Positions 36,714 to 43,030 are shown, numbered from the stretch's first letter. The stretch: DNA of 64,000 nt from an uncultured Planctomycetota bacterium (GCA_963823665.1 CAWGMQ010000008.1:480001-544000), one strand, 5' to 3'. Notes: generated by a model from the letters alone, not told the origin. Numbers and translations: made by a program.

Positions 36714-36744
36714 TGCCGCCCACGCCGCCATCGCCAAACCATCC

Positions 36745-37022
36745 GAGCCCCGCAGGGGCGAAATCTTAAAGCCCGGCGTGTCAACGCCGGGAATGATGGG
36801 TCCCCACGAAAGAAGCCCAGCCACGCAAGGGGCGACATCATAAAGCCCGGCGTGTTCAACTGCGGGGATGATGGGCCCCAATCAAAGAAGCCCAGCCCCG
36901 CAAGGGGCGAAATCATAAAGCCCGGCGTGTCAACGCCGGGAATGATGGGTCCCCACGAAAGAAGCCCAGCCACGCAAGGGGCGACATCATAAAGCCCGGC
37001 GTGTCAACGCCGGGGATGATGG
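36745..37022. repeat. Four ~74-bp tandem REP-like units with palindrome CCCGGCGTGTCAACGCCGGG
   Basis: AAAGCCCGGCGTG at 36768, 36842, 36917, 36991; each unit also has AGCC(C/A)CGCA(A)GGGGCGA. Confidence 0.9.
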
Positions 37023-37025
37023 ACG

Positions 37026-37152
37026 AAGATTCAAGACACCCAGCGTTTTGGCGAGTTTGAGGCAGCCATGGATGGACCACTCGGAGAGAATGTGTGTCCG
37101 GCTGCGCCCTTCCCCGCACGGTTTCATCTTTGATTCCCGACGAAAGGGTGGG
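37026..37152. repeat. Dispersed repeat copy 2, ending at the 3' end of the outer group II intron
   Basis: Matches 36565-36713 and 41382-41510. Confidence 0.85.
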
Positions 37153-37185
37153 GCCGGGTCGCCTTGGGGGATCGCTCCCCCAAGG

Positions 37186-39605
37186 GCCGGGTAAGGAGGT
37201 GACGTTACCGCCACCCCCTCCCCTCAGAACTGCACGTGAAAGTTTCCCTTCATGCAGCTCAAGCCTTCACGAACGCCCCTCGCAGGACGCGGCCGCTTTC
37301 GTCAGTCGTTCTTGGACATGGATCTGCCGATGACAGTTGGCATGCAACAACTCCAGGTTGTCGGCTGTGCCAGAACCGCCCCGGCTGCGCCAGATGCGAT
37401 GGTGGAGATGCAAGTCTTCCTCTGCGATCCGCAGCGGTTGACCACAGACCACGCATCGTCCCTCTTGTTCCTTCCATAAGTATTCGATCCGACCCCGACC
37501 TGCCAGCGTTTGGCTCAGTTGCCAACCCAGTCGTGCTTCCAGGTACAGTTCCCACTTCGGATCGTAGGGATTCACGTCGCTCCGGATCTTCACATAACGA
37601 ATGATCTTCACTTTGGCTGCTTCCATCAACTGGATCGGCCGGCCTTGGCCTTTCTGGTCAAACAGCGTACCGGTGAAGACCCAGTGGCGGTAACCGTCTT
37701 GCTGGAAGTATTTCTCCTTGATCCACCTCCGGCCTTTGTTCTGGTGCCGTCGTCGACACCAACGCCACAATTTCTGGAAAATCCGGTGATCCACGTACGT
37801 AAAAGTGCGCTTGCTCGCCGCGTAACGGTGGTACATGGTCCAGCCCTTGATCTGCTGATTCAAACGCCAGATCATCTCTCCTGCCGTTAGGCTGCCCGAG
37901 CCGTCGATCGTTTCCTGTATCTTGTTCAAGAACGTCTTCACGTTTCGCAAGGACGGCTTGGTGAACACCTTGCCGCAGCGATAGCGTCGCACATTCTGCC
38001 CCAAGAAATCGAAGCCATCCTCCACATGCGTGATCTGGGTTTTCTCGTGGGAAAGTTCCAAGCCGCGTTCCTTCAAGAAATGAGCCACGAGAGGTTGCAC
38101 TTGGTCACGGAGGAGTTCCTTTGAGATGCCCGTGATCAAGAAGTCATCCGCATAGCGGACCAGGTGGACTTTAAACTTCCGTTGTCGCCCGTGCTTCTCG
38201 GCGAACTGTTCCGCCAACAGCCGTTGCAGTCCATCCAGAGTCCAATTCGCCAGGACGGGTGAAATGATCCCGCCTTGAGGTGTTCCTTCCGTGGTGGCGA
38301 ACCAGGCGTGCTTCTCCAGGAAACCCACTTTCAGCCATTGCCCGAGCAACTGCCGGTCCATGGGGACGTGCGTCAAGAGCCAGTCATGACTGATGCGATC
38401 AAAGCAAGCTTTGATGTCCCCTTCGAGAATCCATGCTGGACCGCTCCGATTACCCAAGACAATATGAGATTGTTCCAGGGCGTCGGCACAACGACGTTCC
38501 AGCCGAAAGCCATAGGAATGGCCGTCGGCTCGAGATTCCGCAATGGGATCGAGGCCTAGCAAGTATAATGCCTGCATGGCTCGATCTGACATGGTGGGAA
38601 TTCCGAGAGGACGTCGCTTGCCGTTGCTTTTGGGAATGTACACCCGGCGGAGCGGTTGCGGTTGGTAACCGTGCCGACGCAGAGTGCTGAAAGCAGCCGA
38701 CTTGGCTTCCGGTGTGTTCCAGAGAACTCCGTCCACACCGGGAGTCTTCGCACCCGAATTACTGATGACTCGCAAAATGGCCAGGGCCCGGCCACTGAAC
38801 GAGTGCGTGAGCAGATAAACCAGAGCCTTGACCTTATTCCATCTGCCCTCCGCAACAGCCTTCACGATACGCGCCTGGAGCCGACGGACTGTGCGCCAGA
38901 CTTTCTTCCATTCGATGGAGTGCCAGTCGGGCGTAAGCTCGGGAGCCGCACCAGCAAGCATTTCTGCCGCCGACATATCTGCTTGTCTCCCTGAGTCGGT
39001 TGGCCAAGGTTCTCTCGTGACGGAACACCTGAGGGAAGTCGGCACCGCTTTCGCGGTGAGGGGATGTCGTCCGTGGGAGGACTCACCCTCTATCCGATCG
39101 ACTACCGAACGGCATTGGCTTGCTCCCTCATCCTCCACCCGCCGCCCCATCGGCGACGCCTTACGACGGTCCTACCCCGAAGGGAGGGCGACGGGCTTAC
39201 CACGTTCCACGGATGAATCACGGATGGTTTAGGCTCTGCCTCTCCGCCGGTGGCTCGGATGACGACGACAGGGGATGGGAAATCCCACTGTACCTGGCCA
39301 CGTACCTTTTTGGTTCAAGCCTCTCAGCGCCTTTGGCTTGTTGGATCTCACGACGTTTATCGGCAGTTCACCTGGATTAGCCATGCCATCCACCCCTGGC
39401 CCCCGACCGCATTGGCGTTCGCAGTCGCCGGATTCCCTCACGGGATATCCAACCACCCGAAGGTGAGGTTACGTTGTCCCAAGAGCTTCGCACGGTCGGA
39501 TTGCTCCGGCCGCACGTCCTGGTAGGGTTCCGGTGGTCGTACATCGGGTTATGTCCTGGTTGCAAATCCAGTCATAACAGACTCATCCGCAGCTTCGTTT
39601 CGCGA
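37186..39605 (-). mobile_element. RT-encoding group II intron (IIB, chloroplast-like class), inner intron
   Basis: 5' TCGCGAAACGAAGC; GGAACGTGGTAAGCCC; domain V GAGCTGCATGAAGGGAAACTTTCACGTGCAGTTC directly after the RT stop; domain VI ending CCTTACCCGGC. Confidence 0.92.
37267..38976 (-). CDS. ltrA: Group II intron reverse transcriptase/maturase with HNH endonuclease
   Basis: WHSIEW...RRLQARI N-terminal domain, [32 protein letters not shown], domain X GWTMYH, C-terminal CxxC...HH...[10 protein letters not shown]. Confidence 0.96.
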
Positions 39606-40379
39606 TTCCCACAGATCCGGACTTGCCCGTCGAAGAGGCATCCGGCTCGTCACGTTGGGGAATCACTGTCCCTCACACGACTAGGTCGTTTCGCGGTGAC
39701 ACGCTGGTGAGGCACGGTGTCCTAGCGTGGTTCCAACTTCCCATCCACAAGGCGGTGCCCCCTTCGCTCCACAGGGTCCGGAGGGCCGTTCCCCCGCTTC
39801 AACACTACTATGGGGCACTCCGACTCCTTGCCGTCCATCTCGCCGCACTTCGTTTCCTTCGCTTGGCGATACCATCGTTCGTCCCCTGTTCGTCCCCACC
39901 AGCTCGGGACAGAGCTGTGGATCAACCTGGAGTTGGTAAGCCGGTGCGCCAGCCGGCCGTCACGATGGAGACGCCAAGGTCTCCCAAGTTCCCGGGGAAC
40001 CCTTGTGATCATCCGCCATGTTCCTCCGACCCCGGCGTGACCAAGCAGGCTTGAGTGGACCAAGAGTTAGTTGCCTGGCGCGGCCCCCGCGGGCGTCCAA
40101 GACGAGGGCTCACAACGACGAAATTTCGGGGCTCAATCACACAGCGTTTGATCTCGCTGTCTACGCTTCGCAGTGGAGGTCACCCGCCACCACGCAAGAC
40201 TCGCTGCCGGCTGCTGGTCCAGCTTTGCCGGACGGGATTGGTTACCCGCAGAGTTCCGATAAAAGGTTTCACATTTGAGGTGATCCTCCTTTTCCGAGCT
40301 TCTTGGCGCAAGGACGCAGCTAGTTTGGCTACAAGCCTGAGAGTGCTCGGAGACAATCTCCGCCGAGCCGACAAGCGCA

Positions 40380-41267
40380 TCAAGACGTGAGCTTCTTGCG
40401 AAACGCCGCCAGGCTCCGGCACGTGGCGGCGTGCTCGATCAAGTCCTTCATCCGCGCATCGTCGGCGATCGCCATGATCTCTGTCTCGAGCGCTTCAGCT
40501 TGGGTGCCAAACCGCCGTATCAGAAACGTCATGAGTGATTCGATTTCCCCTTCGCGCTTCCCTTCGCGCTTCCCTTCGCGCTTCCCCTCTTCGGTCCATT
40601 CTTTCTTGAGTTCTTGAAGTAACGGCGATTCGATCATGGCTTGTCGCCCTCCCAGGATCTCGAACAACGCCTCGTCATTATACCGCAAGCGTGCCAGGAA
40701 TTGAGTCACTGCGAGCAGATTTTCCTTCTCGACGCGCGAGCCGACTTTGTCAATGCGAGCTCGGCATTCGCGGATGATCGGCTCAGGTGGTCCATCGAAC
40801 TGCGCCAGCGGCACCCACGGAACCACACCGATATCGCCGGTCGCCAGTAGGTCGCCGGCCGGCACTTCCCACAGCTTGACGATGCGCCATGACGCATCCC
40901 ACGTCGTACAGCCCTGGCGGCTCTTCAACTTGATGGTTTCCGCCGGCAGGACATTTCCCTTGGGGTAGAGAAACAGGACCACGACCTCCGGAAGTACATG
41001 TCGCCCCAGCCATGAGAGCGCGATGTCGTCCATTACCTGACTCGTGACGCGTGCTTCGGGGTAAGTGGCAATTTCCAGGAGATACGTGTCGAGCTCGTCT
41101 TCGCCGAGGTGTAGCACCTCGATCAGCCCATCGGGAAGCCGCCGGTGCTGGACGAGCTCGGCCTGCACCGGCTTCCACGATGAGATGGCCCGCACACGCG
41201 CCATGCGAAGAATCGAGTCGCCGTAGTGCTGGATCTGGTACTTTCCGCACTTGTCATATTCGTGCAT
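40380..41267 (-). CDS. Rpn/YhgA-like PD-(D/E)xK protein (putative recombination-promoting nuclease)
   Basis: YD start, LPDGLIEV...LLEIATY, VKLWEVP, VPWVPL, MIESPLL, (EGKR)3 coiled tail and RRFG C-terminal domain. Confidence 0.65.
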   Translation of the reverse strand: MHEYDKCGKYQIQHYGDSILRMARVRAISSWKPVQAELVQHRRLPDGLIEVLHLGEDELDTYLLEIATYPEARVTSQVMDDIALSWLGRHVLPEVVVLFLYPKGNVLPAETIKLKSRQGCTTWDASWRIVKLWEVPAGDLLATGDIGVVPWVPLAQFDGPPEPIIRECRARIDKVGSRVEKENLLAVTQFLARLRYNDEALFEILGGRQAMIESPLLQELKKEWTEEGKREGKREGKREGEIESLMTFLIRRFGTQAEALETEIMAIADDARMKDLIEHAATCRSLAAFRKKLTS

Positions 41268-41749: not shown

Positions 41750-43030
41750 CAGGGCTGTTGACTAATTGAGGATACCCAGTTTGGCGAAGAGCGTCCGGAC
41801 TTGGGAAGCATTGCGACGAACGGACTCGGCGATGTTGGTCGCGCCAGTGATTCGAAGGAATCCGATCGCTGCATTACGCAGCGCAGCCATGATTTCCGGA
41901 CCGGACCCCTTGCGGATTCGGCTCTTATCCTCGGCGAACGTGACGTCACGCACGTAGTGGGATCGATTCTCGATGGACCAGTGGCCCCGTCCCCAAGCAA
42001 GCAAATGGCTGGCGTTGCCGAGAGCGCGGGGAACGCTGGTAATGAAATAGCGAGTCTCGTTTGAAACCTCTCCGCCTTGCTCAACCACACTCTCAATCTG
42101 CCCGACCTGAGCCACGCCGGGCCAATCCAGATACTCATTCAATGCTGTCGTTGCCTTCAAGGTGCGGCGTTCACGACGACCATGGCCCTTGTCTATGCTC
42201 GTGGTCGTGTCCTGCGCCTGTTCCCAGATTCGTCGCTGTTTAGGGGGAAAAAGCCGCCTCGGTTGATGCGTCGAAGGCGGCCTTAATATCGTTGAGGAGC
42301 GTCGGCTGGTTGTCCTTCACAAACCAAAAGTAGTGGCCGCGTGCATCGATGACCTGCTGGGAAAGATCACGCTGGCAGAACATGGCGTCGCCGGTTACCA
42401 CTCGCCCCTCCAGAACGATACCTCGGAGCAACTGAAGAGCTGTCTTGTGCTCGTTGGTCTTGTTTTCGCCGCCGTTGGGGACCTGTGTCTGAGCCAACGT
42501 TAATCCCGACTCGTGCGCTACCAAGGAGAGCAGGTGGACCGCCTTCTCGAGGCCGTCGAAGCTGCCACGAGCTGTCTTGCCATCGAGAGCAAAAGCTTCC
42601 GGCGGCGAAGGCTCGCTTGAGACTGGACGGTCCAGCAACGATTCGGCCCACCGGCTCAGAGCGTCCTCGAAGGCCTTTGGGTCTAATGCGATCAGAACCT
42701 TGCGAATGCCGCCCATCTTCGGAGGTCTGCGAGTGAAGCCAAGTCGATGCATCAGCCCGATGTCTTGGTCCCGTGCCCATTGCGCAATGGCAGAATAGCT
42801 CTTCGCACCACACATGACGGCACAACACACCAACGCAAGAATGGCCGACAGCGGATGTTGTCGGCCATGCCGACTGCGAGGATCGGGAACAACGGCAAGA
42901 AAGGAAAGAAGACTGCCGGTGGTTTGGGCTTCCATGCGATGCCTCCATGCCGAAAATCCTTGGTGTGGGCGGTTTCCATACCGATAGAACCTTTCCTATC
43001 TGCCTCAGGCTCAATCTGTCAACAGCCGTG
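41750..43030 (-). mobile_element. ISAs1-family insertion sequence (1281 bp)
   Basis: 13-bp terminal IRs CAGGGCTGTTGAC (41750-41762) and GTCAACAGCCGTG (43018-43030, 1 mismatch); 6-bp direct repeat GGGGGA at 41744-41749 and 43031-43036. Confidence 0.92.
41762..42935 (-). CDS. ISAs1 DDE transposase split into two frames at a T5C5 site (42243-42252)
   Basis: DPRSRHGRQHPL, ALDGKTARGS, NE, TGDAMFCQR, VKDNQPTL in ORF1; KGHGRRERR, RGHWSIENRSHYVRDVTFAED, LRNAAI in the +1 frame. Confidence 0.9.

What the first reader, a model, noticed from the sequence alone, without database searches (positions are those of the whole stretch)
37153..40311. Group II twintron: an RT intron inserted exactly at the domain V/VI junction of an ORF-less intron
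Seen: two domain V hairpins (about 37226-37260 and 39614-39648) and two ACCCGGC 3' ends only 33 nt apart (37186 and 37153). Removing 39605-37186 rebuilds an intact outer core, ...GTCCGGATCTGTGGGAA|CCTTGGGGGAGCGATCCCCCAAGGCGACCCGGC, in a ~740-nt intron with no ORF. Established: domains V and VI are needed for catalysis and branching, and twintrons are known. Inference: the outer intron cannot splice until the inner one is removed (obligate ordered splicing), and the ORF-less host may get an RT in cis from its parasite, possibly moving as a composite unit.
Basis: partly seen in the sequence, partly recalled or inferred. Interest (0 to 1): 0.85.

Follow-up and report, generated by a model that had tools for sequence, protein, structure and literature searches.

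The report
Intron targeting other introns' branch helix
A mobile self-splicing intron in a soil bacterium has its targeting loops tuned to the catalytic tail of a second intron family, so every intact copy in the genome sits inside the branch-point hairpin of another intron; introns within introns are known, but I found no paper describing a bacterial lineage aimed at this spot.

Summary
The twintron is real. A 2,420-nt RT/endonuclease group II intron (39605-37186, minus strand) splits a 739-nt ORF-less intron. The cut is not at the DV/DVI junction: it lies 6 nt inside domain VI, opposite the branch A, and host DV is intact. All 7 full genomic copies are identical and occupy this site in seven different host copies; 4 of the 7 hosts carry their own RT ORF. 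The inner EBS2/EBS1 pair with the host DV 3' strand and DVI base, and EBS2 does not pair with the intron's own equivalent site. Seven other assemblies show the same site, including an intron with a much more distant RT but the same domain I. This is a lineage that homes into other introns. 'RT supplied in cis' and composite mobility are poorly supported: intact host-type RT genes exist elsewhere in the genome and insertions look independent. Ordered splicing is plausible but unshown. This window's host is probably a recombinant of two loci. Twintrons, homing into other introns and a DV-interrupting twintron (Euglena psbF) are published. The scan noted similar DVI-homing introns earlier in other genomes. 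Verdict: new variant of a known kind.

The parts
39606..40311 (-). Outer (host) group II intron, 5' part: DI-DV plus first 6 nt of DVI; ORF-less, starts TTGCG
   Evidence: Rfam D1D4-6 40241-40020; about 25 paralogues in the genome; length 706
40093..40098 (-). Host EBS1 (GGACGC)
   Evidence: Loop of the Rfam Id3 hairpin; pairs 6 of 6 with the last six exon bases 40317-40312; other host types carry other EBS1/IBS1 pairs
40312..40317 (-). Host IBS1 (end of 5' exon; intergenic, 68 nt after the stop of a 295-aa ORF without Pfam hit)
39614..39648 (-). Host domain V, intact; AGC triad with a G.A opposition in place of the usual G.U
   Evidence: fold; Rfam alignment of uninterrupted paralogues
39613..39618 (-). 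Inner IBS2 (GGATCT) = 3' strand of the host DV basal helix plus one linker base
   Evidence: 6 of 6 pairs with EBS2
39606..39611 (-). Inner IBS1 (TGGGAA) = 5' strand of the host DVI basal helix
   Evidence: complementary to EBS1 at all six positions
37186..39605 (-). Inner group II intron, 2,420 nt, TCGCG...ACCCGGC
   Evidence: 7 identical full copies; Rfam D1D4-7 and Intron_gpII
39343..39348 (-). Inner EBS2 (AGATCC)
   Evidence: position validated by covariation over 21 relatives, 107 of 126 pairs against 57 shuffled
39276..39281 (-). Inner EBS1 (TTCCCA) in the Id3 loop
   Evidence: fold; covariation 114 of 126 pairs against 57 shuffled
37267..38976 (-). Inner intron-encoded protein, 569 aa: RVT_N, RVT_1 (YADD), GIIM, HNH
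   Evidence: Pfam; best solved relative 6ME0 chain C, E 7e-181, full length
37186..37262 (-). Inner DV (37260-37227) and DVI with bulged A at 37192
   Evidence: RF00029 63.4 bits; fold
37153..37185 (-). Host 3' part: upper DVI hairpin, bulged A at 37159, 3' end
   Evidence: identical to the DVI of the uninterrupted host at G000:C7:960451; fold
37028..37152 (-). 3' exon: a dispersed ~125-nt intergenic repeat, normally preceded by AAGACA, the target of B-type hosts
   Evidence: 21 matches in the genome; flanks of 15 of them; 3 copies in the window

Best explanation
The inner element is an active, endonuclease-bearing chloroplast-like (CL1-type) group II intron whose homing site is the conserved DV-3'-strand/DVI-base of a second group II intron family, the one whose DV ends GGATC. 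SHOWN in sequence: (1) its EBS2 and EBS1 pair with 12 of the last 13 host bases before the insertion; (2) all full copies here and most relatives with these EBS sit at this site; (3) EBS2 does not pair with the intron's own DV end, and no self-insertion is seen; (4) the targeting domain I occurs with two distant RT ORFs. INFERRED: (5) it spreads by ordinary retrohoming with its own protein, each twintron mostly being an independent insertion, and uses the abundant intergenic host introns as a renewable landing site; (6) on a transcript, inner splicing needs EBS2 to invade the host DV basal helix, so the two folds exclude each other; the inner intron leaves first and the host DVI with its branch A then re-forms; (7) hosts, ORF-less ones included, depend on host-type RT in trans, not on the inner RT; (8) invasion taxes the host's mobility because its lariat now needs prior inner splicing.
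For: 7 of 7 full copies, 0 differences, same site, in hosts of three kinds. EBS/IBS positions validated by covariation over 21 relatives, 0 of 5000 shuffles reaching the observed sums. EBS2 duplex -6.7 kcal/mol on the host site against -0.2 on the intron's own site. Same site in G102 (6 of 7 copies seen), L097, L202, G069 (1 of 2), G092, and 3' ends in L123, L144, L154. Relatives with other EBS sit elsewhere. Domain I 80-89% but ORF 55-66% identical to the G102 intron, and the reverse (domain I 42-77%, ORF 80-89%) for sister introns with other targets; the two trees disagree. Freeing the DV basal strand costs 6.6 kcal/mol, about what EBS2-IBS2 gains. Independent insertion: invaded RT-bearing hosts differ by 3-11 nt, one is 1 nt from an empty copy; G102 inner copies differ by 0-6 of 1200 nt in hosts differing at about 40% of aligned columns in 5 of 6 pairs. 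Two intact host-type RT ORFs in the genome.
Against: No splicing or mobility was observed: only assembled contigs of four runs were available and none showed either spliced junction. Two exact EBS-matching host sites in G000 are empty, and 11 host sites in G069 are empty though a related intron is present there. One G102 copy and one G069 copy sit at non-intron look-alike sites, so targeting is not exclusive. EBS3/IBS3 could not be assigned, and the +1 base varies (C, G, A). The 5' end TCGCG departs from the consensus at two positions. Perfect identity of the seven copies could be inflated by assembly polishing.
Confidence: 0.85

Rival explanations
1. Composite, mutualistic unit: the ORF-less host gains the inner RT in cis and the twintron moves as one element.
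For: L097 holds the same pairing (ORF-less B-type host 97.5%, inner 98.3% identical to G000:C6:913070, same DVI tail) in a record titled as another phylum. Two pairs of invaded hosts are close: 3 differences in 2 kb in G000, 3 in 1500 nt in G102. Mohr et al. name composite retromobility as a possibility.
Against: 4 of 7 invaded hosts have their own ORF; no two invaded hosts are identical; invaded and empty copies interleave. Intact host-type RTs exist in trans. The most numerous ORF-less host (13 copies) spread without any inner intron. Composite reverse splicing would need the host to branch with DVI split. L097 may be mis-binned.
Confidence: 0.12
2. The order is not obligate, or the host is dead. 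Host DI-DV is complete, so it could cleave its 5' site by hydrolysis and use either 3' end, or its DI-DIV could use the inner DV-DVI (as C.te.I1 uses alternative DV/VI cassettes), leaving the 33-nt tail in the exon. In an intergenic site nothing selects for full splicing.
For: Host DV is uninterrupted. The host 5' DVI strand pairs as well with the inner 3' end as with its own (-5.3 kcal/mol each). 'Zombie' twintrons without prior inner splicing and the C.te.I1 case are published. This window's host has two mismatches beside the branch A and looks chimeric.
Against: The inner intron's own DV-DVI forms a strong local fold (z -5.1) that should sequester its 3' strand. Sequential splicing is the rule in tested twintrons. 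All 7 invaded hosts keep a foldable DVI tail.
Confidence: 0.3
3. Assembly artefact: repeats were mis-joined, creating false nesting.
For: The window's two exons belong to different empty-site families. Its DVI tail is identical to that of another host subtype. Single-base indels in host ORFs suggest residual read errors.
Against: Seven loci on four contigs with different flanks share the junction. Seven other assemblies show it. EBS pairing predicts it independently. A contig of run X1 matching 100% ends exactly at 39605. A mis-join could explain only the chimeric pairing of this window's two halves.
Confidence: 0.03

Closest known systems
Group II introns that home into the RYADD codons of other introns' RT genes (M.a.I5, UA.I3, P.l.I2, B.th.I3; PMC2504315 passages; Methanosarcina nests in PMC4424553 passages)
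   Same: Site-specific homing into a conserved motif of other group II introns, read by IBS1/IBS2; builds twintrons; gives a perpetual landing site.
   Different: Their target is protein-coding sequence and they lack an endonuclease. Here the target is the ribozyme core (DV/DVI), available in ORF-less hosts too, and the invader has an HNH domain.
Thermosynechococcus elongatus twintrons, TeI3 (F3) in TeI4 (F1) (Mohr et al. 2010, PMC2882425 passages)
   Same: Identical inner copies in diverged outer copies, read as recent independent insertions; the inner RT here is a full-length close relative of the protein in PDB 6ME0 (that this is the TeI4h RT is recalled).
   Different: There an ORF-less intron enters DIV of close ORF-bearing relatives and one protein serves both. 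Here an ORF-bearing intron enters DVI of a distantly related family (RTs 34-37% alike).
Euglena gracilis psbF twintron (Copertino and Hallick 1991; seen only as cited in PMC8393795)
   Same: Inner group II intron interrupts the catalytic 3' end of the outer one (domain V), the textbook case for ordered splicing.
   Different: A single, fixed chloroplast locus in a gene; not a mobile lineage with a programmed target, and domain V rather than VI.
Trichodesmium Tr.e.I7/I8 twintron (PMC4649490 passages)
   Same: Bacterial twintron of two distantly related introns; sequential splicing shown in vivo.
   Different: Inner intron lies in domain I; single locus in a protein gene.

Membership tests
Group II intron (inner) | DV-DVI with AGC triad and bulged A | tested here: met
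   RF00029 63.4 bits, full model; fold
Group II intron (inner) | Domain I with EBS1/EBS2 pairing to the 5' exon | tested here: met
   RF02012; 6+6 complementary positions; family covariation
Group II intron (inner) | RT-X-En protein with YADD | tested here: met
Group II intron (inner) | GUGYG...AY ends | tested here: not met
   TCGCG...GC; but first and penultimate bases covary in the family (G..A 8, T/C..G 9, G..G 1 of 18), fitting the known interaction between them (PMC4238363 passage)
Chloroplast-like class CL1 / IIB1 (inner) | RT falls in the CL1 clade | tested here: inconclusive
   Best solved relative 6ME0 at E 7e-181 against 1e-38 for the next; no tree with class references was built; class label recalled
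Group II intron (outer) | Domain I model, EBS1-IBS1 pairing | tested here: met
   RF02005 105 bits; EBS1 pairs 6 of 6; IBS2 pairing in this copy is poor
Group II intron (outer) | DV-DVI restored on removal of the inner intron | tested here: met
   Folds as DV + DVI; uninterrupted paralogues exist and 2 of 4 loci score RF00029 32-33 bits, under the cut-off
Group II intron (outer) | Assignment to a bacterial class | not tested
   RT-bearing paralogue has RVT_1 only, no HNH; no class reference set at hand
Twintron | One intron precisely nested in another | tested here: met
Twintron | Sequential splicing, inner first | not testable with these tools
   Only assembled contigs were served; no spliced joint
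YADD-homing introns (M.a.I5 group) | IBS1/IBS2 = RYADD codons; no endonuclease | tested here: not met
   Target is DV/DVI; HNH present

The most novel reading that the evidence does not exclude
A dedicated intron-on-intron parasite locked in a conflict with its host family. A portable domain I module, passed between RT lineages, reads the G.A signature of the host's catalytic domain V, which spares itself and canonical introns. Its pairing shuts the host's catalytic helix until the invader has left, so invaded hosts lose mobility. Host variants that avoid invasion then take over, such as the ORF-less variant with 13 full copies here, none invaded, against 7 of 9 exact-match host sites invaded.
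Probability: 0.3. Interest if true: 0.75.

Novelty: new variant of a known kind. Interest (0 to 1): 0.55.

Why it matters
It adds a landing strategy to the short list known for group II introns: the catalytic core of another intron family, a target that the host cannot easily change and that multiplies by itself. It offers a natural, clonable system to test whether an EBS2-IBS2 pairing can act as a switch that orders two splicing reactions, and whether introns limit one another's spread inside a genome. It also shows a blind spot: surveys based on RF00029 miss both the split hosts (stated for twintrons in PMC8919778) and most intact members of this host family, about 25 copies of which score under the cut-off here.

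Tried and rejected
Escape by a single EBS2 mismatch: the 13 full ORF-less A-type hosts (plus one fragment) carry T>A at -8 and are all empty, against 7 of 9 exact-match host sites filled (7/2 against 0/19, Fisher p 3e-5; copies are not independent). I do not accept -8 as the cause: the duplex changes by only 0.1 kcal/mol, 9 of 21 relatives have a mismatch at that position at their natural sites, and a relic in G092 sits after this very variant. Position +7 separates filled from these empty sites equally well; cause open. Reads: 20 of 24 listed runs hold part of the stretch, none half of it; four were laid, contigs only, no spliced joint, which is no evidence either way. Viral contigs: no junction and no EBS2 motif. 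Plasmids: only distant partial matches. Phylum sample of 400 other genomes: one chance match to the EBS2 motif. 200 relatives of G062: no match. Metagenome scan on the DVI motif: 7 loci, only 1 of them a close relative, and that one is at the DVI site. No sigma-70-like promoter upstream. EBS3 could not be located. A DIVa-like hairpin in ORF-less hosts appeared in only 1 of 5 folds and is not used as evidence. Simon et al. 2008 and Hafez and Hausner 2015 were not held; they, the Zimmerly database entries and unread supplements may describe such a site.

Full report
Observation. On the minus strand, 40311-37153 holds two group II introns, one inside the other. Rfam finds two different domain I models (40241-40020, 39548-39399) and one DV-DVI (37262-37186). 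The inner intron is 2,420 nt (39605-37186) and encodes a 569-aa RT-maturase-HNH protein, whose best solved relative is 6ME0. The outer intron is 706 + 33 nt without an RT ORF. Its EBS1 pairs 6 of 6 with its 5' exon, and its DV and DVI fold once the inner intron is removed in silico. Uninterrupted paralogues show where the cut lies: 6 nt inside DVI, after the 5' strand of the basal helix and opposite the bulged A, with DV untouched.

The site is a programmed target. The genome holds 7 full inner copies with no differences, on four contigs, all at this site, plus one 3' remnant followed by a DVI tail. Their hosts are of three kinds: two ORF-less B-type, one ORF-less A-type and four RT-bearing A-type. 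The inner EBS1 (39281-39276) and EBS2 (39348-39343) are complementary to the host DVI basal strand and the DV 3' strand. These positions are real EBS: across 21 relatives aligned (2 rows left out for lacking a usable 5' end), EBS1 pairs at 114 of 126 and EBS2 at 107 of 126 positions with each intron's own exon, against about 57 in shuffles, 0 of 5000 reaching the observed values (relatives are not independent). EBS2 reads the G.A opposition that marks the host family's DV. On the inner intron's own DV end the duplex falls from -6.7 to -0.2 kcal/mol, and four other introns of the genome with full Rfam DV-DVI matches are uninterrupted.

Other genomes. The same site is used by a 98% relative (L097), a 96% relative in a metagenome contig with a more distant host (L202), 3' ends in L123, L144 and L154, and, among 120 genomes of the same family, by G102, G069 and G092. 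In G102, 6 of 7 copies seen are at the DVI site and one at a non-intron look-alike; only five candidates per genome were scored, so these are lower bounds. The G102 intron shares 80-89% of domain I but only 55-66% of the ORF with the inner intron, while sister introns share 80-89% of the ORF but 42-77% of domain I, carry other EBS and sit elsewhere. Trees of the two parts disagree (20 rows each, four short, duplicate or misaligned rows dropped per tree). The targeting module has thus been combined with at least two RT lineages. Domain I relatives with other EBS also exist (L250), so the site follows the EBS, not the clade.

How it most likely works. Homing: inferred to be ordinary retrohoming by the intron's own endonuclease-bearing protein. 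Insertions look independent. Invaded RT-bearing hosts differ by 3-11 nt and one is 1 nt from the empty copy at C7:958514. In G102, inner copies differing by 0-6 of 1200 nt sit in hosts that differ at about 40% of columns in 5 of 6 pairs. Mohr et al. drew the same conclusion from the same pattern in T. elongatus. The hosts are themselves mobile: about 25 copies, A-type after GTGTCT and B-type after CAGACA, each matching its EBS1, in intergenic repeats. Splicing: the inner IBS2 is the host DV basal strand. Opening it costs 6.6 kcal/mol, about what EBS2 pairing returns, so inner splicing and host catalysis are mutually exclusive folds. Inner-first order is therefore likely for branching (my estimate about 0.65) but unshown; host DI-DV is complete and skip or hydrolytic routes remain open. 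RT supply: two host-type ORFs are intact (450 aa), one of them in an invaded host; trans action on ORF-less relatives is the pattern described in the review. The cis-RT idea is unnecessary. The best hint for composite persistence or transfer is L097, where host (97.5%) and inner (98.3%) match the pair at C6:913070.

This copy is probably a recombinant. Two paralogues of the 5' exon continue with a different sequence, and 10 of 14 paralogues of the 3' exon are directly preceded by AAGACA or a one-base variant of it, not by this window's IBS1. The host's 5' part is B-type, its DVI tail is identical to that of A-type RT-bearing hosts, and the joined DVI has two mismatches beside the branch A, where C6:913070 has a proper pair. 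Recombination through the identical inner copies, or a mis-join, would explain this.

Occupancy. Exact EBS-matching host sites: 7 filled, 2 empty (one a relic); one chance non-intron match is also empty. Host DV sites with any departure: 0 of 19 filled. Thirteen of these are full copies of one ORF-less variant that differ by up to 25 nt, so some predate the inner intron's burst. The contrast is striking, but the obvious cause, a mismatch at -8, is weakly supported (see Tried and rejected), so escape remains a hypothesis.

Known systems. Twintrons, homing into other introns' YADD codons, ORF-less introns entering DIV of relatives, sequential splicing in Trichodesmium and a group II intron inside domain V in Euglena psbF are published. 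I read passages of PMC4424553, PMC2882425, PMC4649490, PMC5572947, PMC7049729, PMC8919778, PMC3534033, PMC8393795, PMC4238363, PMC2504315 and PMC3919590, the abstract and outline of PMC12584367, and no supplements. Searches showed no bacterial lineage targeting DVI; the library lacks most subscription papers, and two key papers were not held. The scan's own notes report similar sites in other genomes; a sequence look-up found no look-alike of this domain I among them, so I could not tell whether they are the same lineage.

Verdict. Real, and more systematic than first read: a group II intron specialised on the branch helix of another intron family. New variant of a known kind; interest 0.55.

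Noticed in passing
G000, e.g. L008, L016, L083, L088, L089: An ORF-less group II intron (732-733 nt) has 13 full copies, some in tandem, far more than its RT-bearing relatives (6); most score below the RF00029 cut-off. Its domain I is 96-99% like the RT-bearing A-type while its DIII-DIV resembles the ORF-less B-type: another module swap.
   Followed up: partly
L003, L004, L007, L008 and others: A-type and B-type hosts target opposite strands of the same short inverted-repeat motif (after GTGTCT; after CAGACA), each with a matching EBS1.
   Followed up: partly
L077:5315-5370 (G000:C3:129320), L230, L254: Truncated host DV ends are preceded by an inverted copy of the same site, giving a GATCCGGATC palindrome; in L230 a whole inverted DVI precedes it. 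Unexplained; may be a repair scar at this target.
   Followed up: no
alignment of 24 CL-like introns: First and penultimate intron bases covary: G..A in 8, T or C..G in 9, G..G in 1 of 18 with both ends.
   Followed up: partly
L123:1835-6150: Three-layer relic: a host with RT ORF, a third intron inserted just after its YADD codons, then the 3' half of a DVI-homing intron; looks like recombination between two YADD insertions.
   Followed up: partly
L243, L245 (G102:C6, C8): Inner copies of 4389 and 4867 nt instead of 2400, suggesting further insertions inside the invader.
   Followed up: no
window 36735-37044: Four ~74-nt tandem units with Rfam Acido-Lenti-1 matches (two above cut-off), next to the ~125-nt dispersed repeat that forms the 3' exon.
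   Followed up: no
window 41762-42935 (-): A DDE_Tnp_1-type transposase gene split into two ORFs; and at 40380-41267 a 295-aa ORF without Pfam hit, with several paralogues sharing the downstream sequence.
   Followed up: no
L127, L131, L132, L137, L145, L151: Distant relatives of the inner intron are followed by sequence that looks like transposase genes or a tRNA 3' half (by eye, not tested).
   Followed up: no
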